NCBI GenBank assembly: GCA_035473115.1
Contig: DATION010000006.1
Coordinates: 64,521-128,520 of the forward strand
DNA from: Candidatus Udaeobacter sp.
GTDB lineage: Bacteria > Patescibacteriota > Patescibacteriia > Magasanikbacterales > GWA2-37-8
DNA length: 64,000 bases
Direction: 5' to 3'
The translations under genes were made by a program, and so were the position numbers. This document shows, in pieces, positions 439-10,397 of this stretch (the stretch's first letter is position 1; each line of letters begins with the position of its first letter). A model generated the notes under the pieces. It saw only the letters and a list, made by a program, of their open reading frames with translations, did not search any database and was not told the origin of the DNA.

Positions 439-2403
439 TTATGGAGAGATCCTCACGTCTCCTTTTTTCCCGATATGAATTGGGATTATTTCTTTGACCA
501 ACCGTTTCACTTGCGGTCCCAATCCAAAATACATATAGGCCGGAGCCGATATTTTCAGTATCAATGAGAACAGTCGTGCTGCCAATCTGAAGAAGGGATT
601 TTTTGCTTCATTGATAAAGAACTCTTCGCCTACGACCAGGTCGCCGTCACGATGGATGAATTGTGCTTCAACCTCTTTTCCCATCTCAGGCTCTCTCATG
701 TAGCCAAAGTTAGTAATGATTGATTTGATCACGCATCCATCTTTTTGGTAGAGGATTACCTTTTCTGTATGGTAATAACTCGGGTTATTGCTTCGCAAAA
801 CTGTCACAAAGGTAATTGCTTCCGGTACTTTCCCATGCCGTTCAATATGTAGTTGCAGAGTTAATGGCACCAGGTCTTCCAGTCTACGAACCGGATTTGA
901 TGTCAAGAAGAGCTGGTGGTTGCCGACTGATTTTTTTGAGCCAATCAGATCTGCAGCCATTTGGACAGTGAAACGCGGTCTCGTGCTTGTGCTGTAGCTG
1001 CTGGTGAAAGCCTTGAGCATCAAATTTTCTCTTCCCCATTGCCAAACGTACATAAGAGTAAAGAGACAAATTGCGATCAGAATTGGCACATAACCACCGT
1101 TCCAGAACTTCAATGTGTTGGCTCCGAAGAAAGCAAGGTCGACCGATGCGAACAAAATACAAATTGGCACAGCGACCTTTGGCTTCCAGTTCATGCGATC
1201 TATCGCTACCTGCATAAAGGCGATCGTTGTAATCGCCATTGTTCCAGTCACGGCAATACCATAGGCCGCAGCCAGAGCGCTGGATGTTTCAAATTTCTGG
1301 ACTAGTAAGATACAGCCGATGAACAGAGTCCAGTTGATGAAGGGGATATAGATCTGTCCTTCATGATCAGCGTTGGTATGCTTTATCTTGAGGCGTGGAA
1401 ATAATCCAAGTGAGATAGCTTGCCTTGTGAGAGAGAACGCGCCCGAAATCAAAGCCTGGCTGGCAATGACTGTCGCCGCAGTAGCCAGGATCACCATCGG
1501 GATTAGCAGGTCTTTTGGAACAATAGCGTAAAACAAGTTATTTCCGTTGTCGGCTGTTGCCGAGAGTAGATGAGCACCTTGTCCAAAGTAGTTCAGTAGA
1601 AGACTTGGGTATACAACCGCGAACCAAGCCGTACGAATTGGCTTGGCACCAAAGTGACCCATGTCAGCATAGAGCGCTTCACCGCCTGTAATGCATAGAA
1701 CAACACTTCCAAGAATGATCCAAGTATGGCTGCCATGGTTCACACAAAACTGAATTGCGTACCACGGATTAACAGCTTGAATAATTTCTGGGTGCTTCGT
1801 AATTTGCACCAGCCCAAGCCCACCAATAACTAGAAACCAAACAACCATCACTGGCTTGAACAGGTTGCCCACCCTATCAGTGCCCCAACGCTGGATAGCA
1901 AAGAGGCCAAATAGAGTGAGGTAGGTTAATGGGATGATATATGGATGGAAAGCTTTGCTTGAAACTTCCAAGCCTTCCCAAGCAGAAAGAACAGAAATCG
2001 CCGGCGTGATCATGCCGTCTGCATACAACAGGCAGGCACCGAGCACAATCAAACTGGGTAGAATTACCTTCACCCATTTGGAGGATCGTTTTGGAATTAC
2101 AGTTTTATCGCTACTGTTATTTCCGTTGCCATTCTTGAGCAAAGCTAGCAAGGCAAAGATTCCACCTTCACCTTTGTTGTCTGCGCGCATGACGAGGTAA
2201 ATGTATTTCATCGTCACGATGATTGCTAGAGCCCAAAAAAACAAGCTGAGCATGCCGAAAACATTCTCGGTACTTAGTTTTCCACCAAGCGAATTCTTAG
2301 TCTCGTTCAAGGCGTAGAGTGGCGACGTGCCGATATCCCCAAAGACAACCCCAACGGTCGCAAGAGTCATACCAACAAGATCGCTACCATGCTTCTTTGT
2401 CAT
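439..2403 (-). CDS. kup: KUP/HAK/KT family potassium uptake transporter
   Basis: 672-aa minus ORF with the Kup signature GVVFGDIGTSPLYAL and about 12 transmembrane helices. The likely true start is the internal Met (MTKKHG...) at 2403, preceded by AAGGAAA 5 nt upstream. The ORF track starts at 2457. Confidence 0.9.
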   Translation of the reverse strand: MTKKHGSDLVGMTLATVGVVFGDIGTSPLYALNETKNSLGGKLSTENVFGMLSLFFWALAIIVTMKYIYLVMRADNKGEGGIFALLALLKNGNGNNSSDKTVIPKRSSKWVKVILPSLIVLGACLLYADGMITPAISVLSAWEGLEVSSKAFHPYIIPLTYLTLFGLFAIQRWGTDRVGNLFKPVMVVWFLVIGGLGLVQITKHPEIIQAVNPWYAIQFCVNHGSHTWIILGSVVLCITGGEALYADMGHFGAKPIRTAWFAVVYPSLLLNYFGQGAHLLSATADNGNNLFYAIVPKDLLIPMVILATAATVIASQALISGAFSLTRQAISLGLFPRLKIKHTNADHEGQIYIPFINWTLFIGCILLVQKFETSSALAAAYGIAVTGTMAITTIAFMQVAIDRMNWKPKVAVPICILFASVDLAFFGANTLKFWNGGYVPILIAICLFTLMYVWQWGRENLMLKAFTSSYSTSTRPRFTVQMAADLIGSKKSVGNHQLFLTSNPVRRLEDLVPLTLQLHIERHGKVPEAITFVTVLRSNNPSYYHTEKVILYQKDGCVIKSIITNFGYMREPEMGKEVEAQFIHRDGDLVVGEEFFINEAKNPFFRLAARLFSLILKISAPAYMYFGLGPQVKRLVKEIIPIHIGKKGDVRISP

Positions 2404-2720
2404 TGTGTTTCCTTTGTACTGATTGTTTGTGCTTAGATTATCCGTATTATTTTTCACCCAACGAAAGGCAGGCTTCTCTTTCCCCCTCCTTTTTATTAGG
2501 AAGACAAAAAAGAACCTTTCCTTTGTTGTAGAAGTCTGTCTTGCAGTTAGGTGAATAATTGTCGAACAAACTAAGTATTTTGTTAATGAGCGCCGCCAAT
2601 CGGATATTTACCAAATAACCGATGCTATATTTTATATATGGTTATAGTAGTATGTCAGTACATTTAAAAATTTGCGCCATCCGGTTTTTTCGCGATAGGT
2701 TATTGTAGCAGTTATTTATG

Positions 2721-2804: not shown

Positions 2805-3146
2805 ATGTTGACTATTCGTTTACAAAGATTAGGAAAAAAGAATGCTCCGACTTATCGTTTGGTTATCTCAGAAAAAGCTAGAGACACCCAAGGAAACAAT
2901 TTAGAAATTTTAGGCAGTTTTAATCCGCATTTGAAAGAAGGCGGTTTAGTGCCAAACATAGAGCGCATTAAATACTGGTTAGAAAAAGGCGCACAGACTT
3001 CAAATACCGTACATAACTTATTTTTGAAAGCCGGCATTATCGGCGGAGAAAAGAAAAAGAAATCAGTTTATATCTCTACAGACCGAGCTGCCAAATTGGC
3101 CGAAAAAGCCAAATCAGCCGCTCCAAAAGAAGAAGCTGCAGCTTAA
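2805..3146 (+). CDS. rpsP: 30S ribosomal protein S16
   Basis: N-terminal MLTIRLQRLGKKNAPTYRLV is the canonical S16 start. Confidence 0.9.
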   Translation: MLTIRLQRLGKKNAPTYRLVISEKARDTQGNNLEILGSFNPHLKEGGLVPNIERIKYWLEKGAQTSNTVHNLFLKAGIIGGEKKKKSVYISTDRAAKLAEKAKSAAPKEEAAA

Positions 3147-3343
3147 TGTTTGACTGAGATTTTCAGATTTGATATTATTGTAAGTAAGGAGCAGAACTGG
3201 TAGTCGCTTCAAGTGACAATGGTCGACAGTCTGCCAATTATAGAAAACAAAATGCGTATTTAGAAATGAAGTTTATAACTTTATTTAGACAAACAAAGCA
3301 AATATGAAAAAACATTTTCATATTTGATTCAATCTTAGAAATT

Positions 3344-3661
3344 ATGGAAGCAGATCAACAGTTTATCGAAATGTTAGTTAAAGCAATTGTTAACAACCCG
3401 GAAGATGTAAAAACAGAACGCACTATCGACGAAAGAGGAGTTTTAATAACTCTAACCGTTAATCCAGCTGATATGGGTTATGTGATTGGCCGCGAAGGTC
3501 AAACAGCTCGTTCTATGCGCACTTTGCTTAAGATCGTTGGTGCTAAGCACAACGCTCGCGTTAATTTAAAGATTAACGAACCAGCCGGCGGCCGAGCTCC
3601 TCGCCCAGCGCAAATGGATAACCAAATGGTTGATACTAGCGCAGTAGATTTGAACATCTAA
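3344..3661 (+). CDS. KH-domain RNA-binding protein (YlqC/UPF0109-like), the usual rpsP neighbour
   Basis: Contains VIGREGQTARSMRTLLKIVG, a KH GXXG motif. Positional conservation next to rpsP. Confidence 0.85.
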   Translation: MEADQQFIEMLVKAIVNNPEDVKTERTIDERGVLITLTVNPADMGYVIGREGQTARSMRTLLKIVGAKHNARVNLKINEPAGGRAPRPAQMDNQMVDTSAVDLNI

Positions 3662-3682
3662 TAAAATACAAATAAAACTAAA

Positions 3683-3716
3683 CCACTCTTGGGAAACTGA
3701 GGGTGGTTTTGTTTTT
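3683..3716 (+). terminator. Intrinsic terminator after the KH gene
   Basis: Stem CCACTC/GAGGGTGG (3683-3707) followed by TTTTGTTTTT. Confidence 0.45.
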
Positions 3717-3719
3717 ACA

Positions 3720-3748
3720 TTGACAAAAACTAAGAAGTGTGCTATATT
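3720..3748 (+). promoter_or_regulatory. Strong sigma70-like promoter with extended -10 driving the GC-rich cupin gene
   Basis: TTGACA (3720-3725), a 17-nt spacer ending in TGc, then TATATT (3743-3748). Confidence 0.5.
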
Positions 3749-3839
3749 CAATGGTTGTTTTTATATTGGTTGGGCGAAAATTGAGGTTAGAAAAACTTTA
3801 GTTTTAGCCCAAACAATAACAACCGGGCGAAGGAACATC

Positions 3840-4301
3840 ATGGAGAAGCGTAAATTGAGTCCCGAAGAAGTTGCCTTCCTGGGCATGAGTACGAATCACG
3901 AGCAGATGCCAAATGCGGAGTATCGTCTCCGCCTCATGTGTGCGGATGGTAGTGGTTACATTCGCACCGTCGCTGGTCCCAAGGGTGAGTGGCAGAACAG
4001 CCACTACCACACGGGTGTCCGCGAGTTCATCGCTGTCCAGACCGGCTGGATAGCGATCGCTGAGTTCCGCGATGGCCAACTCGTCATCAGAGTGCTCAGC
4101 GCTGGTGCGTTCATTGTCTCCGAGCCGAACGTGCACCACAACGTGTACATGTCGGCGAGGACAGTCACTCATTGCGTGAAGTTTGGTGACACGGCGGCGG
4201 AGAAGGCCAGCGGCAAGGCCGACTGGCACGCGAGCCATGAGGTAGACAGGCTCACCAAGCACCTCCCCGAGGATGAAATCCTGTCAATCGCCGTGGAGTA
4301 G
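3840..4301 (+). CDS. Cupin-fold protein on a GC-rich, probably horizontally acquired, segment
   Basis: The sequence is visibly GC-richer than its flanks from about 3840 to 4380. Start MEKRKLSPEE at 3840 is preceded by AAGGAA. The HYHTGVREFIAVQTGW...NVHHNVY pattern resembles cupin metal-binding motifs. The ORF track starts at 3720 inside the promoter and is not believed. Confidence 0.55.
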   Translation: MEKRKLSPEEVAFLGMSTNHEQMPNAEYRLRLMCADGSGYIRTVAGPKGEWQNSHYHTGVREFIAVQTGWIAIAEFRDGQLVIRVLSAGAFIVSEPNVHHNVYMSARTVTHCVKFGDTAAEKASGKADWHASHEVDRLTKHLPEDEILSIAVE

Positions 4302-4343
4302 TAGGTAGGTTTGGAATCATCCGAACCAACCTCATATTGTCCC

Positions 4344-4377
4344 GACCTGTCGCGCGTGCGGCGGGTCTGTGTTTTTT
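4344..4377 (+). terminator. Intrinsic terminator closing the GC-rich insert
   Basis: 10-bp GC-rich stem (4344-4367) followed by TGTGTTTTTT. Confidence 0.5.
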
Positions 4378-4421
4378 AAAAAACATATTGTATAATGATT
4401 AAGAAATAAAAGTTTTGTTAT

Positions 4422-5006
4422 ATGAATGAAAGTTTCAGCGGTTTTTATGGCTTAGTAATTTTGCCAGATGCGGTTACTGTTGAACGTGTTCGTTCGTTGG
4501 TTAAACAGTTGGCTCCAAAGGTTGAATTCCAAACAGAAATTCCTCATGTTACTTTGTTTCAAGGACAGATGAAAGACTTGCCTGTAGCAGAGGTAAAGAA
4601 ATTATTAAAAAAATTAGAAAGTTTGCGCGGTAAACAATTTAATTTAGATAAGTTAGAAATTTTTGCTGGGGAGTACCTTTTTTGGGATGTTAAAAATACC
4701 GTAGAATTACAAAAAGCTCATGAAGTAGCTCTAGATATGGTAAAGTATGTAAATCCAGACAGGCTTAAATTGGCACCACATGCGTCGCTAAATTTAACAG
4801 ACAAGCAAATGGAGAGTGTAAAAAAGTATGGCCATCCGCTTTCTGGGAGTGCATATTTACCGCATATTACTATAGCTGCTGATTCAAAATCGTTTTCTTT
4901 GCCAGCCGGGTTTACAGAATTGCCTGGTAGGTTTACAGTTGATTCAGTCCAGTTTAGCGAGATGGGTAAAAACGGCCGAGTGGAAAATTTAATTGAAATA
5001 AAATGA
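4422..5006 (+). CDS. 2H phosphoesterase superfamily protein (LigT-like 2'-5' RNA ligase / cyclic phosphodiesterase)
   Basis: Two H-x-T-x motifs (PHVTLF and PHITIA) with the right spacing in a protein of about 190 aa. Confidence 0.7.
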   Translation: MNESFSGFYGLVILPDAVTVERVRSLVKQLAPKVEFQTEIPHVTLFQGQMKDLPVAEVKKLLKKLESLRGKQFNLDKLEIFAGEYLFWDVKNTVELQKAHEVALDMVKYVNPDRLKLAPHASLNLTDKQMESVKKYGHPLSGSAYLPHITIAADSKSFSLPAGFTELPGRFTVDSVQFSEMGKNGRVENLIEIK

Positions 5007-5719
5007 AATTTAATATCCTGACAATCTTTCCTAATTTTTTTGAAAGCTTTAAAAATGAAGCTTTAATTTTACGCGCGCAGAAAAAGAAATTGATTTCTAT
5101 AACTACAAATAATTTGCGGGACTACGCCGAAGATAAGCGCGGCACAGTTGATGATCGGCCGTATGGAGGAGGGGCTGGTATGGTTTTAATGTTTATGCCG
5201 ATTTACAAAGCAGTGCAAAAAATAAAAGCTAAATTGAAAACCCCAAAGGGGTCCCTTCGGGATAAAAAGTCTAAGATTAAAGTAATTGTTTTTAATCCTA
5301 AAGGTAAAAAATTTACTCAAGAAATGGCTCGCGAGTGGTCTAAACTCGATCAATTAATTATGATTTGCGGTCGCTATGAAGGTATAGATGAACGAGTTAT
5401 GACTGAAGTGGCTGATGAAGAAATTTCTATTGGTGACTATGTTTTATTTGGCGGGGAAGTACCGGCGATGGTAATTATGGAAGCGGTCACGAGATTGTTG
5501 CCAGGTGCTATTGGCAAACAGGAATCTCTTAAAGACGAATCATTTAAAGATGCCGGAGAAATGGGTCAGGAACAATTAATTAAATTTATTGAATACCCGC
5601 ATTACACTCGGCCGGAAGTTGTGGTTGTAAAAAGAAAAAAAGTTAAAGTACCAGATGTTTTGCTTTCCGGTGATCATAAGAAAATCGAGGAGTGGAGGAG
5701 GCAAAATTCTCAGGGTTAA
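5003..5719 (+). CDS. trmD: tRNA (guanine37-N1)-methyltransferase TrmD
   Basis: MKFNILTIFPNFF start, GGGAGMV and CGRYEGIDERV motifs. ATGA overlap with the upstream gene. Confidence 0.9.
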   Translation: MKFNILTIFPNFFESFKNEALILRAQKKKLISITTNNLRDYAEDKRGTVDDRPYGGGAGMVLMFMPIYKAVQKIKAKLKTPKGSLRDKKSKIKVIVFNPKGKKFTQEMAREWSKLDQLIMICGRYEGIDERVMTEVADEEISIGDYVLFGGEVPAMVIMEAVTRLLPGAIGKQESLKDESFKDAGEMGQEQLIKFIEYPHYTRPEVVVVKRKKVKVPDVLLSGDHKKIEEWRRQNSQG

Positions 5720-5790: not shown

Positions 5791-6157
5791 TTAGAAGCTA
5801 AAAACATAATAAATTTTTGCAAACCAAGTACCTCAAAATTAACGGTTCTCAAGTAAGTCCAAAAAGGAAACTACTTGCCTCGCTTAGCGAGGGGAAGAGA
5901 AAAGAGCAATCAAGATTTGATTTCTCTTTTTTCTTTCTAATCAGGTATTAGGAAGAAAAAAGTTTTCCAACAATTCAAAGATTGGAAAGGCACGTTGACA
6001 ACATAAATGTGACAAAGACCACACTTCAAAATTAACTTCGGTTAATGGAGAAGTACCCAAGTCTATTCTAAAAAAACTCGAGTTATTTCGAGTATAAATA
6101 AAAAATAAATCTATAATGATAACTTGTTCAGATTGAACAAATATTAAACTCTTTTTA

Positions 6158-7684
<1,527 letters not shown>

Positions 7685-7812
7685 GGAGATACTCAGTCGA
7701 AAGACTGTGAATTTCTGTCGAGCATACTGATTTATCAGTATTGCGCCTCAACTTCGGTTGAGGACTGAAAGGATAGACCGGTCTTTGTCACATTTATGAA
7801 GTCAATGCAAAA

Positions 7813-7835
7813 AATTCGCTTATGGCGAATTTTTT
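7813..7835 (+). terminator. Hairpin with U-run after 16S (terminator or processing site)
   Basis: AATTCGC-ttatg-GCGAATT followed by TTTTT. Confidence 0.4.
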
Positions 7836-7887
7836 GTTGACTAAGTTTTATTTTACTATTATATTATTCGGTAGGAGGAACCAAAAA

Positions 7888-8064
7888 ATGCTTTTCAGGA
7901 TGAACCCTTTAAAAAACTCGAGATTGATATTGGCCATTTTGGAGAGGCTTCCCGGTCCAGTGATACTGTCATTGGTAGTTTTTCTGGAAGCCTTAGACAG
8001 AGGGCAAAGTATTTGTGCCGGAGTAAGAAGAGCCAAACAGGCTATGAGTTTGAAAAAAAAGTAG
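7888..8064 (+). CDS. Small hypothetical protein (58 aa) with its own promoter and Shine-Dalgarno sequence
   Basis: TTGACT (7837-7842), 17 nt, TATATT (7860-7865). AGGAGG (7873-7878) lies 9 nt before ATG 7888. One hydrophobic segment. The ORF track's longer version starts at 7822. Confidence 0.3.
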   Translation: MLFRMNPLKNSRLILAILERLPGPVILSLVVFLEALDRGQSICAGVRRAKQAMSLKKK

Positions 8065-8341
8065 TTTTCACCTAGAGGTATAGTGAGTGAGAGTGATTGA
8101 TCATTTAGAAGTTGGTAGACCAAATTTGGCAGGTAGCGAGCATACTCCGCCAATTGTACGGCTTGGCAGAGGTAAAATGCCTACCTTCGTAGTCGCCCGA
8201 TCACGAGGCATAAATCGTGAAGTCACAAAAACAATCTTAGTAAATAAGGTTGTTTTTGTTTGAAAATAACAGCAAATCAGGCCTTGATTTTTTAAGGCAA
8301 TCTGTTATACTTGATTTTACTAAAAAAGTTTTGTATAATCA

Positions 8342-8415
8342 GGGCAATTAGCTCAGTTGGTTAGAGCGTTACATTGACATTGTAAAGGTCAGAGGTTCGA
8401 ATCCTCTATTGCCCA
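8342..8415 (+). tRNA. tRNA-Val (anticodon GAC)
   Basis: Cloverleaf folded by hand: acceptor GGGCAAT/ATTGCCC, anticodon stem TTACA/TGTAA, loop TTGACAT, T-loop TTCGAAT. No encoded CCA. Confidence 0.9.
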
Positions 8416-8566
8416 CTTATGGGTTCCCAAGAGCCTTTATAGCCATTTTATGGCAAGTTTACTTTATTAAGATTTAAATTTTCTTGCAAAATGAATATTC
8501 ATTATGATATGCTAAAGGCAAAATTAAACTAGCGTATTATAATATTAACGATATAATTATATTTAT

Positions 8567-9838
8567 ATGGAGAAAGGACTAATAACATCAACTCCAGAAT
8601 CCACCAAGGAAGAACCAGTTGAGACCGAGACTGAAGCTGAAGCTAAGGCTAAGGAGAGTGAAGAAAAAAAACCGGCTAAAGCCTCGGGAGTTAATAGAAT
8701 TTTGGGAAGAATGGAAATCGCTTATAACCAGTTTTGGGTGAATAGACATGAAAAAAAAGCTGTTCAGCTTAAAAATAAAATAGATGGCTCTGATTTAAAA
8801 ATCAGAGCGCTTGAGCAATCTAAGCAAGAAATAGCGTTGGCCATTGGAGATTTAAAAGCGCAGAATATTCCGGGCAGTGAAACATTAAAATTAAAAATCA
8901 AGGCTATAGATCAGGAAATAACTGGTTTTTCAAACACAAGAGATGCAGTCCAGAGTAAACTTGAAGAAAGAGAAAATAAAGCAAAATTATACACAAACAA
9001 GAGAGATAGAGTAGCCGACAAGCTCATTGGCCATTATGATGAAAAACTTGAGCCGATGGAAGAGGAATTAGAAAATCTACAGACCTGTAAAGATCAGGTA
9101 GATCTGGTTATGGCTGTAACGGAAGCAAAACACGGTGAGCAGTTAGAAAAACTAAATAACATTAAAAAAAGAAAAACACAATTAGAAAATGCTTTGCGCA
9201 CGACAGGGATGTCGGAAAAACAGGTTCAAAAATTTGAGGCAGTAAAAGCATTGACAGATCTTTTGGTCCAAGGACGTGAAAAGGTAAGGTTGGAGTGGGA
9301 TGATTTAATGCAAAGAAAAGCAAGAATAAATGAAAAAATTGCAGATGTTGATGCTAAAGCTAATCCTTATAGAGATAAGCGGGAAAAGTTTGCTAGAGTA
9401 AAGGCAGGAAGACCGGTTAGCATGGAAGTGGCAACAAGACAAAGAGTGTCTGAGTTTAAAGGCACAGAAGAAGCAACATCACACACCAGAACAGAAAGTT
9501 CCGAGGAAAAACCTTCCGGTGTATATGAAACATCTCCGATGGAAGCCAAAGTAGCAGAATCTATAGAAAAAGATAAAGAACGACGGACAGCCTCGGATTA
9601 TATTTCCGGTTGGAATACTTATCTTCAGAAAAAATACGGTGGCGACCTGCTGGCAACAGAGACAGTCAACTCAAAAGATTTTTTAAGTTCAACTCGTCTA
9701 TCGTCCGATTATAAACTGGACTTCAAAGATTTTAAAAATATTTTGACAAGGTATTACAAGCTCAAAAAGATGCCCGCAGATAAGCTGAATGCTGATATTG
9801 ATAAGTTCTTTGCCGACACAATAAAGGTCCAGAAATAA
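8567..9838 (+). CDS. Hypothetical K/E-rich coiled-coil protein
   Basis: 423-aa ORF with long heptad-like charged stretches. No recognisable catalytic motif. Confidence 0.55.
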   Translation: MEKGLITSTPESTKEEPVETETEAEAKAKESEEKKPAKASGVNRILGRMEIAYNQFWVNRHEKKAVQLKNKIDGSDLKIRALEQSKQEIALAIGDLKAQNIPGSETLKLKIKAIDQEITGFSNTRDAVQSKLEERENKAKLYTNKRDRVADKLIGHYDEKLEPMEEELENLQTCKDQVDLVMAVTEAKHGEQLEKLNNIKKRKTQLENALRTTGMSEKQVQKFEAVKALTDLLVQGREKVRLEWDDLMQRKARINEKIADVDAKANPYRDKREKFARVKAGRPVSMEVATRQRVSEFKGTEEATSHTRTESSEEKPSGVYETSPMEAKVAESIEKDKERRTASDYISGWNTYLQKKYGGDLLATETVNSKDFLSSTRLSSDYKLDFKDFKNILTRYYKLKKMPADKLNADIDKFFADTIKVQK

Positions 9839-9861
9839 TAAATTTATTTTGATTAAAAAAT

Positions 9862-10137
9862 ATGACAGCAGATCTAAATCAAGCAAATACTAAAAGTGCT
9901 CAAGGTGTGAATGCGCAGCTTAATGATTTGTTAAAAGATGCAAAAAACCTTAATCGAGAAATAGATAAAACTAATAGTGAAGCAAATAAAAATATTGATG
10001 GCATTGAAGCGGTAGTTGATAGATCGGTAAATAAAATCACACGGATTTATTCTGACTTGGACGCGATAGAAGAAAATGCCGGAGACGAACTCGACAAACT
10101 TGTGCTTCAACGCACGAAAGACTTGGCTGACGAGTAG
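9862..10137 (+). CDS. Hypothetical small coiled-coil protein
   Basis: 91-aa ORF, charged and helical, ending immediately before tRNA-Ile. Confidence 0.45.
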   Translation: MTADLNQANTKSAQGVNAQLNDLLKDAKNLNREIDKTNSEANKNIDGIEAVVDRSVNKITRIYSDLDAIEENAGDELDKLVLQRTKDLADE

Positions 10138-10147
10138 ACTTAAAAGA

Positions 10148-10221
10148 GGGCATGTAGCTCAGATGGTTAGAGCGCGTCACTGATAATGACGAGGTCCCAA
10201 GTTCGATTCTTGGCATGCCCA
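10148..10221 (+). tRNA. tRNA-Ile (anticodon GAT)
   Basis: Acceptor GGGCATG/CATGCCC, anticodon stem CGTCA/TGACG, loop CTGATAA, T-loop TTCGATT. Followed by hairpin CGACGCTCAGCGTCG. Confidence 0.9.
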
Positions 10222-10397
10222 CGACGCTCAGCGTCGTTTTTGGCATATTTAGCGTGCCACTACGATAATTTTTAAGACCTGTTTATGACATGGTTTATTG
10301 TTGTTCATTTTCAGCATAGACTATTTGCCAAATATAAAAATTTAGTATATAATCCCATTTTAGATAGCTTTGAATTTTCAATAAAATAACTTATTTT

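What the first reader, a model, noticed from the sequence alone, without database searches (positions are those of the whole stretch)
3683..4380. GC-rich foreign cupin gene with its own promoter and terminator inserted into the rpsP-KH-(rimM)-trmD ribosomal operon
Between the KH-domain gene and trmD, where rimM normally sits, lies a ~550-bp segment whose base composition is obviously GC-richer than everything around it. The segment encodes a cupin-like protein. It is bracketed by a near-consensus extended -10 promoter (TTGACA-17-TGcTATATT) and a GC-rich terminator. It is followed by a 2H phosphoesterase gene before trmD resumes, and no rimM is present. This looks like a horizontally acquired cassette that displaced rimM.
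Basis: seen in the sequence. Interest (0 to 1): 0.55.

Follow-up and report, generated by a model that had tools for sequence, protein, structure and literature searches.

The report
GC-rich cupin cassette with conserved leader
A small enzyme gene with about 60% GC sits in its own promoter-to-terminator unit inside a 40% GC candidate-phyla-radiation (CPR) bacterial genome, and the same unit is found, still GC-rich, in a dozen related lineages, so it is an old, exchangeable gene cassette and not a fresh insertion.

Summary
Window 3840-4301 encodes a 153-aa metal-type cupin with GC 0.58 and GC3 0.73. That GC3 lies 7.8 SD above the 49 other window ORFs. A KH-gene terminator, a TTGACA-17-TGcTATATT promoter and a GC-rich terminator bracket it. 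A 2H phosphoesterase gene and trmD follow.

- The organism is Magasanikbacteria-like (CPR). rimM is nearly absent from all CPR, so nothing was displaced.
- The cupin is not a recent one-off. Twelve further CPR-type loci carry it, at 50-74% amino-acid identity to the window copy. All have AT-rich flanks, and 11 of the 12 have GC3 of 0.67-0.91.
- Four-fold sites are at or near saturation in many copy pairs, including those involving the most divergent copies.
- In other phyla the same family has host-like GC.

All but one of the copies carry a conserved, AT-rich 5' leader of about 85 nt. The leader has a 21-bp hairpin (94% of cells paired, 7 compensatory pairs) and matches no Rfam family.

A genome whose flanks are 97% identical to one cupin-bearing relative has a GC-rich NUDIX gene in the same slot instead. 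That gene has a homologous promoter, leader and terminator.

So this is one member of a family of insulated, swappable GC-rich cassettes. Why the GC-richness persists is unresolved.

The parts
3680..3716 (+). Terminator hairpin after the KH gene plus its T-run. It forms the left edge of the insulated unit.
   Evidence: Terminator scan: 13-pair stem and T-run. The sequence is conserved in L003, L074 and L081. A similar hairpin precedes the cassette in L001, although the upstream gene there is different.
3720..3748 (+). Sigma-70-type promoter with an extended -10: TTGACA, 17 nt, TGcTATATT.
   Evidence: 11 of 12 matches, TG present. The pattern TTGACAAAA...TGnTATAnT is conserved across 12 cassette loci.
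3753..3839 (+). 5' leader of about 85 nt. It holds a 21-pair hairpin (arms 3767-3789 and 3793-3815), a C/A-rich linker (3811-3824), GGGC (3825-3828) and the Shine-Dalgarno sequence GAAGGA (3829-3834).
   Evidence: RNAalifold gives 21 pairs, 7 of them with compensatory changes. 94.3% of cells are paired, 0 of 500 shuffles reach the observed score, and slid controls give 28-56%. Conserved G.U pairs make the structure specific to the sense strand. The single-sequence fold has z = -3.4. The covariance model R1 finds the leader only upstream of cupin or NUDIX-A cargo, including the untrained locus L062. No Rfam family matches.
3840..4301 (+). GC-rich CDS for a 153-aa single-domain cupin. The predicted metal site is His55/His57/Glu62 plus His100.
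   Evidence: H55, H57 and E62 are invariant and H100 nearly invariant in 38 homologues.
4302..4377 (+). GC-rich 3' UTR (GC 0.58) ending in an intrinsic terminator (stem 4344-4367, then a T-run).
   Evidence: L003 (cupin cargo) and L081 (NUDIX cargo) share 38 nt of terminator sequence at 92% identity.
4389..4396 (+). Extended -10 element TGTATAAT that probably restarts transcription for the 2H-trmD genes.
   Evidence: Read directly from the sequence. Conserved in L001/L002 and, in weaker form, in L003/L004. The promoter scan did not flag it because there is no -35 hexamer, so this is an inference.
4422..5006 (+). AT-rich 2H (LigT-like) phosphoesterase gene, a recurrent neighbour of the cupin.
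   Evidence: Pfam 2_5_RNA_ligase2, 29.7 bits. A 2H gene also lies next to the cupin in L072 (68% identical to the window protein) and upstream of it in L006.
5003..5719 (+). trmD, the right-hand housekeeping flank.
   Evidence: NCBIfam TrmD equivalog, 275 bits. The best named relatives are Candidatus Magasanikbacteria at 83-84% identity.

Best explanation
The segment is one copy of an old, self-contained expression cassette that circulates among Magasanikbacteria-like CPR genomes.

How it works (steps 1-4):
1. The upstream KH gene ends at its own terminator.
2. A near-consensus extended -10 promoter starts a transcript at about 3755. Its first 60 or so nucleotides fold into a conserved 21-pair hairpin. 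The promoter and terminators are consensus matches conserved across loci, and the hairpin is supported by covariation. The transcription start is inferred.
3. The hairpin probably protects the 5' end. It also probably holds the U-rich/GCCC 3' arm away from the GGGC-Shine-Dalgarno region, leaving the C/A-rich linker and ribosome-binding site open. This step is inferred.
4. A 153-aa metal-binding cupin is translated, and the transcript ends at a GC-rich terminator. A TGnTATAAT element then restarts transcription of the 2H phosphoesterase and trmD genes. The restart is inferred.

Evolution:
- The cupin came from outside the CPR long ago, and its leader has diverged along with it.
- Whole cassettes, with either cupin or NUDIX cargo, are exchanged or differentially lost in the recombination-prone region between the KH gene and the 16S rRNA gene.
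- The GC-rich composition of the ORF and 3' UTR is being held in place, most likely by selection acting on the transcript. It is not a remnant of recent transfer. This point is inferred and is the weakest step.

Enzyme function:
- The substrate is unknown.
- Repeated adjacency to 2H phosphoesterase, NUDIX, inositol monophosphatase (IMPase) and haloacid-dehalogenase-type (HAD) phosphatase genes suggests work on nucleotide-derived or sugar-phosphate metabolites. Confidence in this is low.
For: Recurrence:
- Twelve further CPR-type loci carry the cupin: L001, L003, L060, L072-L074, L076, L077, L080, L007, L006, L062.
- Flanks have GC 0.34-0.47. The gene has GC 0.55-0.64 and GC3 0.67-0.91, apart from L062 at 0.49/0.54.
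- In nine of them the gene lies next to KH and/or trmD.

The family has no intrinsic GC bias:
- In 50 or so Bacillales, Vibrionaceae, Weissella and other loci the gene's GC follows the host within about 0.05.
- GC1, GC2 and GC3 regress on flank GC with r = 0.71-0.84. The CPR copies look as if they lived in a genome of roughly 60-75% GC.

Age:
- For many cupin pairs, identity at four-fold sites in conserved codons is close to the value expected from composition. Examples: window-L003 0.35 against 0.34, window-L007 0.33 against 0.32.
- Even so, A stays at 0-11% and C at 25-60% at those sites.
- Between L081 and L085 the flanking TrmD and S16 are near saturation (0.32 against 0.27, 0.37 against 0.32). 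The syntenic NUDIX gene still has GC3 0.62 and 0.80.
- In a neighbour-joining tree most CPR cupins cluster together.

Cassette behaviour:
- L003 and L081 are 96.8% identical in DNA through S16, KH, the terminator and the -35 element. They then diverge completely (cupin against NUDIX).
- They match again over 38 nt of the terminator. Both cargoes have homologous leaders.
- L006 and L062 carry the leader-cupin unit in unrelated contexts.
- Other GC-rich, promoter-bearing NUDIX genes flank trmD in L001 and L085.

Leader structure.

No phage or plasmid source was found.
Against: - No transcript data exist. The transcription start, leader function and restart promoter are all inferred.
- The anti-Shine-Dalgarno alternative helix is 81% paired but shows no significant covariation (35 of 500 and 179 of 500 shuffles reach the observed values).
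- Selection on the transcript was not demonstrated. I could not polarise substitutions, because all outgroups are saturated.
- GC1 and GC2 are also raised, which fits a mutational or ancestry signal as well as selection.
- GC3 varies from 0.54 to 0.91 among copies. That spread could reflect different residence times after import.
- Some pairs are not saturated (window-L001 0.72, L003-L074 0.67, L007-L080 0.82 four-fold identity).
- The tree is neighbour-joining without support values, and one GC-rich-genome sequence (L079) groups with the L007/L080 subclade.
- Many contigs are 1-5 kb, so contexts are incomplete.
Confidence: 0.5

Rival explanations
1. Repeated recent import. Each AT-rich lineage received its leader-cupin (or leader-NUDIX) cassette recently from an unsampled GC-rich reservoir, such as GC-rich CPR relatives. 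The cassettes diverged in that reservoir, and GC-richness simply has not yet decayed in the recipients.
For: - Cassette phylogeny disagrees with host markers. L003 and L007 hosts are close (S16 89%, KH 95%) but their cupins are 47% identical. Window-L003 has S16 76% and cupin 63%.
- Cargo is swapped between genomes whose flanks are 97% identical.
- L007 and L080 show a mosaic pattern, with the first 131 nt identical and then 12% divergence.
- All three codon positions look like those of a GC-rich genome.
- GC3 ranges from 0.54 to 0.91, as graded amelioration would give.
Against: - All 13 leader-bearing or CPR-type copies retrieved sit in AT-rich flanks. None sits in a GC-rich genome.
- The only GC-rich-flank relative, L079, is 52% identical and has no leader in the 44 nt available upstream.
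- The leader itself is AT-rich (GC 0.31-0.38) and has diverged together with the cargo.
- Nothing was found in viral contigs, phages or mobilisable plasmids.
Confidence: 0.25
2. GC-biased gene conversion. The KH-trmD-16S neighbourhood recombines often, and biased repair drives the exchanged segment toward G and C.
For: - Recombination in the region is evident: the cargo swap, two trmD allele types only 52% identical in otherwise close genomes, and the mosaic cupin.
- GC is raised at all codon positions and in the 3' UTR.
Against: - Flanking genes that are also exchanged stay AT-rich, for example trmD type A/B with GC3 0.25-0.43.
- The GC boundary is sharp, at the ribosome-binding site and at the terminator.
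- From general knowledge, not tested here: reported bacterial conversion effects are a few percent of GC3, not 0.33 rising to 0.8.
Confidence: 0.1
3. One reading: a single recent horizontal insertion that replaced rimM in this genome.
For: Atypical GC and codon usage. Own promoter and terminator. No rimM in the locus.
Against: - rimM is nearly absent from all CPR.
- The same cassette is present in 12 other lineages at 50-74% identity to the window copy, with four-fold sites near saturation in many pairs.
- Relatives without the cupin also lack rimM.
Confidence: 0.03
4. An integron-like gene cassette, with the conserved hairpin acting as an attC recombination site.
For: - Single-ORF modules are exchanged at one locus.
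- The hairpin arms contain GTTGGGC and GCCCAAC-like cores, which resemble the attC R' and R'' consensus.
Against: - The hairpin lies 5' of the ORF, inside the transcript.
- The core order is GTTRRRY...RYYYAAC, the reverse of attC.
- Conserved G.U pairs indicate an RNA structure.
- Each cassette has its own promoter.
- No integrase gene appears in any locus.
Confidence: 0.03
5. Assembly chimera: GC-rich reads from another organism were joined into a CPR contig.
For: The MAG carries an implausible NCBI taxon label, Candidatus Udaeobacter.
Against: - The same junctions, leader and terminator recur in independent assemblies from NCBI, ENA, JGI and Logan.
- These include a 754-kb contig.
Confidence: 0.01

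Closest known systems
Horizontally acquired 'alien' genes and genomic islets, recognised by atypical GC and expected to ameliorate (Lawrence-Ochman model; cited from general knowledge)
   Same: Composition and codon usage are far from the host's. Distribution among close relatives is patchy. The protein family is centred in other phyla.
   Different: - The unit is only about 0.65 kb with one gene.
- There is no integrase, tRNA target or flanking direct repeat.
- It carries host-like AT-rich expression signals that co-evolve with it.
- The atypical composition has outlasted near-saturation of synonymous sites in many lineages.
Integron gene cassettes with attC sites
   Same: Single-ORF modules with different cargo occupy one chromosomal slot, and each carries a conserved imperfect palindrome.
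   Different: The palindrome is a transcribed 5' leader, its core order is reversed, each module has its own promoter and terminator, and no IntI is present. Defining features were tested and not met.
5' UTR stabiliser or translational-switch hairpins, such as the ompA 5' stem-loops, the Bacillus aprE leader and RNase III processing sites in phage leaders (from general knowledge)
   Same: A long hairpin starts close to the 5' end of the mRNA, followed by an unstructured linker and a strong ribosome-binding site. The stem is long enough (21-23 bp) to be an RNase III substrate.
   Different: It is a new sequence family with no Rfam match. It is shared by two unrelated cargo genes. No cleavage or stability data exist.
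Small single-domain metal cupins of Pfam Cupin_2: KdgF, Ni-quercetinase QueD, Thermococcus phosphomannose isomerase, DddK
   Same: Same jelly-roll barrel (Foldseek probability 1.00, TM 0.5-0.63) and the HxH...E...H ligand pattern.
   Different: Identity is 12-20%. The match is below the Pfam gathering score. No solved relative is found by sequence. A family-specific N-terminal helix and C-terminal helices are present, with invariant W51, Q52, D128 and W129. No activity is assigned.
The bacterial rpsP-(KH)-rimM-trmD-rplS ribosomal operon
   Same: rpsP, a KhpA-type KH gene and trmD occur in that order.
   Different: rimM and rplS are absent. Each gene appears to have its own promoter and terminator. 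Accessory cassettes are interposed, and a 16S rRNA gene follows trmD.

Membership tests
Cupin superfamily (Pfam Cupin_2, PF07883) | Score at or above the Pfam gathering threshold | tested here: not met
   18.8 bits against a cut-off of 27.2, E = 0.0013. Some homologues do carry the precomputed PF07883 hit.
Cupin superfamily (Pfam Cupin_2, PF07883) | Conserved jelly-roll beta-barrel fold | tested here: met
   AlphaFold pLDDT 95.3 and pTM 0.86. 521 PDB matches at E <= 0.001, the best 50 nearly all cupin-fold proteins.
Cupin superfamily (Pfam Cupin_2, PF07883) | Motif 1 G(x)5HxH(x)3-4E(x)6G and motif 2 G(x)5PxG(x)2H(x)3N, which supply the metal ligands | tested here: met
   Motif 1 is exact at G49...H55-Y-H57...E62...G69. 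Motif 2 is degenerate (G89...P96-N-V-H99-H100-N101). H55, H57 and E62 are invariant and H100/N101 nearly invariant in 38 sequences. Metal binding itself was not tested.
Recently transferred, non-ameliorated gene | Absent from relatives, or near-identical to a donor, with little synonymous divergence among copies | tested here: not met
   Present in 12 related loci. Four-fold-site identity is close to the composition expectation for many pairs. The closest relative from a GC-rich genome is only 52% identical.
Integron gene cassette | attC 3' of a promoterless ORF with R'' (RYYYAAC) ... R' (GTTRRRY) order, plus an intI/attI platform | tested here: not met
   The hairpin is 5' of the ORF with the reverse core order. 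The cassette has its own promoter. No integrase is present in the loci examined.
Mobile genetic element (IS, transposon or genomic island) | Terminal inverted repeats or target-site duplications, and a transposase or integrase | tested here: not met
   Only short, low-identity repeats lie around the cassette. No recombinase ORF lies in the locus.
Structured cis-regulatory 5' leader RNA | A conserved secondary structure, supported by covariation, upstream of the regulated genes | tested here: met
   21 pairs, 7 with changes on both sides, 94.3% paired, 0 of 500 shuffles as high, slid controls 28-56%. Found upstream of two unrelated cargo genes.
Structured cis-regulatory 5' leader RNA | An alternative pairing that masks or exposes the ribosome-binding site | tested here: inconclusive
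   The 3' arm (UUUUAGCCC) is complementary to GGGC(U/G)AGGAG and pairs in 81% of cells, but the sequences barely vary, so covariation is not significant.
Known Rfam families | A match at the gathering score | tested here: not met
   There is no gathering-level hit in the window other than 16S rRNA and tRNAs. In the permissive scan the only match over the leader is an unrelated sRNA on the minus strand at 21.9 bits against a gathering score of 48, E = 2.4.
RimM (functional replacement) | RimM / PRC-barrel domains, or a lineage in which rimM was lost only where the cupin is present | tested here: not met
   No RimM or PRC Pfam hit. rimM is nearly absent throughout CPR. Relatives that lack the cupin also lack rimM at the locus.
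Anti-phage defence system component | A match to PADLOC models | tested here: not met
   No hit for the cupin, the 2H protein or three NUDIX cargo proteins.

The most novel reading that the evidence does not exclude
The GC-richness is not a fading trace of transfer. It is an actively maintained property of a previously undescribed class of insulated, leader-controlled single-gene cassettes, with cupin, NUDIX and possibly HAD- or IMPase-type cargo. CPR bacteria exchange these cassettes around trmD and the 16S gene. On this reading, selection on the transcript keeps a gene of about 60% GC inside a 40% GC genome for longer than it takes synonymous sites to saturate. That selection could favour resistance to AU-directed RNases, mRNA longevity, or decoding by rare tRNAs that depend on m1G37 methylation (made by TrmD). 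In support of the tRNA idea, 8 of 9 Leu codons are CUN against 31% in host genes.
Probability: 0.35. Interest if true: 0.8.

Novelty: new variant of a known kind. Interest (0 to 1): 0.62.

Why it matters
- Atypical GC is routinely read as evidence of recent horizontal transfer. Here a gene keeps a donor-like composition at all three codon positions across a whole clade of AT-rich, genome-reduced bacteria, alongside AT-rich control signals that co-evolve with it. Either composition can be held far from the genomic equilibrium by selection on an mRNA, or CPR bacteria draw on an unseen GC-rich gene pool. Both alternatives are testable, and both bear on how HGT is dated.
- The analysis also yields a new conserved 5' leader RNA motif shared by unrelated enzyme genes, which points to a small regulon.
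- It identifies a recombination hot spot next to trmD and the 16S gene where accessory enzymes are swapped between near-identical strains.
- The cargo enzymes (cupin, NUDIX) and their recurrent neighbours (2H, IMPase and HAD-type phosphatases) may mark a nucleotide or sugar-phosphate salvage function relevant to the dependent lifestyle of these organisms.

Tried and rejected
- The longer homologues of about 300 aa carry no informative second domain.
- Bacillales gene neighbourhoods of the family are heterogeneous and uninformative.
- The GTDB genome scan returned no CPR relative closer than 51% identity. The JGI metagenome scan added two CPR-type loci, L060 and L062.
- Cluster look-up returned no organism names for the nearest non-CPR relatives.
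- The antisense 152-aa ORF (3804-4262) is rejected as a gene. That antisense frame has 0-2 stops across the 13 copies, with stops in 5 of them. It stays mostly open as a side effect of avoiding A at third codon positions.
- The integron attC reading is rejected because of position, core order, the cassette's own promoter and the absence of an integrase.
- Phage and plasmid reservoirs: no matches in IMG/VR by protein or leader pattern. There were none in the phage collection and only two distant megaplasmid hits.
- PADLOC defence models gave no hit.
- Literature searches found no description of GC-rich cassettes in Patescibacteria.
- I considered polarising substitutions between GC-to-AT and AT-to-GC. 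I abandoned it because outgroups are saturated and GC-rich, which would bias the inference.
Full report
**1. What is in the window**

The locus reads as follows:
- rpsP, 2805-3146
- a KhpA-type KH-domain gene, 3344-3661
- a terminator hairpin, 3680-3709
- the promoter TTGACA-17-TGcTATATT, 3720-3748
- an untranslated leader of about 85 nt
- a 153-aa ORF, 3840-4301
- a GC-rich terminator, 4344-4367, followed by a T-run
- a 2H (LigT-like) phosphoesterase gene, 4422-5006
- trmD, 5003-5719
- a 16S rRNA gene starting at 6151

The consensus scans found both terminators and rated the promoter at 11 of 12 matches with an extended -10. GC climbs from 0.33-0.43 to 0.55-0.60 across 3800-4400 and then drops back. 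The ORF has GC 0.58 and GC3 0.73. The other 49 window ORFs average GC3 0.330 (sd 0.052, maximum 0.49), so the cupin sits at z = +7.8.

Codon choice is the reverse of the host's:

| Codon | Use in the cupin | Use in host genes |
|---|---|---|
| CTC (Leu) | 6 of 9 | 3% |
| AAG (Lys) | 6 of 7 | 21% |
| TTC (Phe) | 4 of 5 | 12% |

One correction: the ORF starts at 3840, not at the TTG at 3720.

**2. The protein**

- Pfam Cupin_2 matches only weakly, at 18.8 bits against a cut-off of 27.2.
- The AlphaFold model built on 38 homologues is confident, with pLDDT 95.3.
- Its Foldseek matches are cupins: Ni-quercetinase, oxalate decarboxylase, KdgF and a Thermococcus phosphomannose isomerase. Probability is 1.00, TM 0.5-0.63 and identity 12-20%.
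- Cupin motif 1 is exact. His55, His57 and Glu62 are invariant and His100 nearly invariant in the family.
- No solved structure is related by sequence.
- The family is modest in size, with 360 clusters at 50% identity. Its function is unknown.

**3. The organism, and rimM**

The window's TrmD is 83-84% identical to proteins named Candidatus Magasanikbacteria. Hits further down the list are from other Patescibacteria. The NCBI label on this MAG, Candidatus Udaeobacter, is therefore probably a binning or labelling error.

[quoted passage not shown] Magasanikbacteria genomes that carry a different gene in this slot also lack rimM there. The cupin did not displace rimM.

**4. The cupin is not a one-off**

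The closest homologues, at 50-74% identity to the window copy, lie on contigs with the same neighbourhood.

| Locus | Arrangement |
|---|---|
| L003, L004 | S16, KH, cupin |
| L001, L060, L074, L078 | cupin, trmD |
| L077 | KH, one gene, cupin |
| L080 (a 754-kb contig), L007 | S16, KH, IMPase (opposite strand), cupin, trmD |
| L072 | cupin, 2H |
| L006, L062 | the unit in other contexts |

Sources.

In 11 of the 12 the gene has GC 0.55-0.64 and GC3 0.67-0.91, against flanks of 0.34-0.47. L062 is the exception at GC 0.49 and GC3 0.54.

The family has no intrinsic need for G and C. In about 50 loci from Paenibacillus, Bacillus, Photobacterium, Weissella and others, the gene's GC follows the host within roughly 0.05. 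GC1, GC2 and GC3 all regress on flank GC with r = 0.71-0.84. By that regression the CPR copies look as if they lived in a genome of roughly 60-75% GC.

**5. The composition has persisted**

- For many pairs of CPR cupins, identity at four-fold sites within conserved codons is close to what base composition alone predicts. Window-L003 is 0.35 against 0.34, window-L007 0.33 against 0.32, and window-L074 0.39 against 0.34.
- Closer pairs are not saturated: window-L001 0.72, L003-L074 0.67, L007-L080 0.82.
- Even so, A stays at 0-11% and C at 25-60% at those sites in every copy.
- L081 and L085 give the cleanest case. They carry a syntenic GC-rich NUDIX gene in the same slot. Their flanking trmD and rpsP are near saturation at four-fold sites (0.32 against 0.27, and 0.37 against 0.32), yet the NUDIX gene keeps GC3 0.62 and 0.80.
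- A neighbour-joining tree places most of the CPR cupins in one cluster. L007 and L080 form a sister group, together with one sequence from a GC-rich genome (L079). The tree has no support values.

A simple two-state decay toward GC3 of about 0.3 predicts roughly 0.5-0.65 after that much change. That estimate is my own approximation. Most copies are well above it.

**6. A conserved leader**

The DNA between the promoter and the start codon is AT-rich (GC 0.31-0.38) and is conserved among the cassettes. It folds into a 21-pair hairpin, at window 3767-3789 paired with 3793-3815.

- Seven pairs show compensatory changes.
- 94.3% of cells form standard pairs.
- None of 500 column shuffles reaches the observed covariation.
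- Shifting the partner columns drops pairing to 28-56%.
- Several positions are conserved G.U pairs. These would be mismatches on the other strand, so the structure belongs to the sense RNA.

A C/A-rich linker follows, then GGGC and a GGAG-type ribosome-binding site. With the 5' arm removed, the 3' arm (UUUUAGCCC) is predicted to pair with GGGC(U/G)AGGAG. That would make the hairpin an anti-anti-Shine-Dalgarno element. This alternative helix is too conserved in sequence to give significant covariation, so I treat it as an inference.

No Rfam family matches. A covariance model of the leader found it only upstream of cupin or NUDIX-A cargo, including one locus not used in training (L062, 65 bits). 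It found no other copy in the 64-kb window.

**7. Cargo swapping**

L003 (cupin) and L081 (a Magasanikbacteria genome, GCA_017991415.1) have 100% identical KH proteins. Their DNA is 96.8% identical from rpsP through the KH terminator to the -35 hexamer. Homology then stops. It resumes for 38 nt at the cassette terminator at 92% identity.

Between those two points L081 carries its own version of the -10 element, a homologous leader hairpin, and a 249-aa NUDIX gene with GC 0.57. L085 has the same arrangement.

Other GC-rich genes flank trmD:
- In L001 a NUDIX-like gene (weak Pfam match, 15 bits) at 4116-4880 on the minus strand has GC3 0.86 and its own TTGACAAAAG-type promoter and terminator.
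- In L085 a NUDIX gene at 6859-7578 on the minus strand has GC3 0.80.
- L062 has further GC-elevated genes after the cupin. Read by eye from the ORF translations, these look HAD- and IMPase-like; I did not scan them against Pfam.

The neighbourhood is unstable in other ways too:
- trmD exists as two forms only about 52% identical, in hosts whose S16 and KH are 89% and 95% identical.
- Cupin relationships disagree with host-marker relationships.
- L007 and L080, about 91% identical in DNA overall, have cupins with 26 nonsynonymous and 14 synonymous codon differences, after 131 identical nucleotides at the start.

**8. Interpretation**

The best account is an ancient, insulated expression cassette, one of a family with cupin or NUDIX cargo, that is exchanged or differentially lost in the KH-trmD-16S region of these CPR genomes.

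Three explanations remain for the persistent GC-richness.
- Selection on the transcript, which I favour at about 0.5 including the cassette description. The GC-rich zone covers the ORF and the 3' UTR but not the leader, and every one of the 13 copies lies in an AT-rich genome.
- Repeated import from an unsampled GC-rich pool, at about 0.25. This is supported by the phylogenetic incongruence, the raised GC1 and GC2, and the spread of GC3 values.
- GC-biased conversion at a recombination hot spot, at about 0.1. This is weakened by the AT-rich, equally exchanged trmD and by the sharp boundaries.

Phage and plasmid sources found no support. Neither did an integron-like mechanism: the palindrome is in the wrong place and orientation, each cassette has its own promoter, and no integrase is present. 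A chimeric assembly is excluded by the many independent assemblies.

**9. Function**

No test here assigns a substrate. A 2H phosphoesterase lies next to the cupin in three different arrangements: window, L072 and L006. IMPase, NUDIX or apparently HAD-type genes lie next to it in others. That pattern suggests metabolism of nucleotide-derived or sugar-phosphate compounds. This is an inference from gene neighbourhood only. Bacillales contexts gave no hint.

**10. Limits**

- Many contigs are short.
- Context look-ups and collection scans were capped.
- The tree is distance-based, and substitution direction could not be inferred.
- No expression data exist.
- The literature library held nothing on GC-rich cassettes in Patescibacteria. 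That is weak evidence of novelty.

Noticed in passing
window 439-2457 (minus strand): A Kup-type K+ transporter gene with raised GC (0.457, GC3 0.49) lies between SMC and rpsP in this lineage only. In L003, L007 and L081, SMC is followed directly, or after one small ORF, by rpsP. It looks like a second, separate insertion.
   Followed up: partly
window 5003-5719; L001 3393-4034; L007 6763-7434; L081 6001-6699: trmD occurs as two forms only about 52% identical to each other. Type A is in window, L081 and L085. Type B is in L001, L060, L007 and L080. The hosts' S16 and KH proteins are 89% and 95% identical, so the essential gene itself appears to have been replaced.
   Followed up: partly
L081 5130-5879; L085 5103-5885 and 6859-7578 (minus); L001 4116-4880 (minus); L062 5696-8520: Other GC-rich single genes lie in AT-rich flanks around trmD. 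They include three kinds of NUDIX or NUDIX-like protein and genes in L062 that look HAD- and IMPase-like by eye (not scanned against Pfam). Where sequence was inspected (L081, L085 NUDIX-A, L001) each has its own promoter and terminator. The cupin is therefore one of a set.
   Followed up: partly
window 3709-3722 and 3755-3768; L077 1190-1310: A 14-nt direct repeat, TTGTTTTTAYATTG, flanks the cassette promoter. In L077 a promoter occupies the place of the leader's 5' arm, so that transcript would lack the hairpin.
   Followed up: no
window 4389-4396: An extended -10 element (TGTATAAT) with no clear -35 lies directly after the cassette terminator. It is conserved in L001/L002 and more weakly in L003/L004. 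It is a likely restart promoter for the 2H-trmD genes.
   Followed up: no
window 3147-3343: The rpsP-KH spacer is 197 nt here, against 95 nt in L003. It contains a promoter-like TTGACT-17-TATTAT preceded by TG (3150-3178). No Rfam family matches.
   Followed up: no
window 6151-10222: The 16S rRNA gene (6151-7682) is not followed by a 23S gene. tRNA-Val (8342-8416), a 423-aa Glu/Lys-rich ORF (8567-9838) and tRNA-Ile (10148-10222) come next, so the rRNA operon is split.
   Followed up: no
whole window (source record): NCBI names the identical proteins as Candidatus Udaeobacter sp. (Verrucomicrobiota). The TrmD relatives and gene order are Magasanikbacteria-like (CPR). This is a probable mis-binning or mislabelling of the MAG. 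L006 and L007 are labelled 'uncultured Gammaproteobacteria', and L007 carries the CPR-type locus.
   Followed up: partly
L007 5995-6474 compared with L080 6001-6480: Two genomes about 91% identical in DNA have cupins that differ at 26 nonsynonymous and 14 synonymous codons. All differences lie after nucleotide 131. This suggests a recombination mosaic or relaxed or diversifying selection.
   Followed up: partly
window 3804-4262 (minus strand): A 152-aa antisense ORF overlaps the cupin gene. The same antisense frame is nearly stop-free in all 13 copies but is interrupted in 5. I judge it a by-product of avoiding A at third codon positions.
   Followed up: yes
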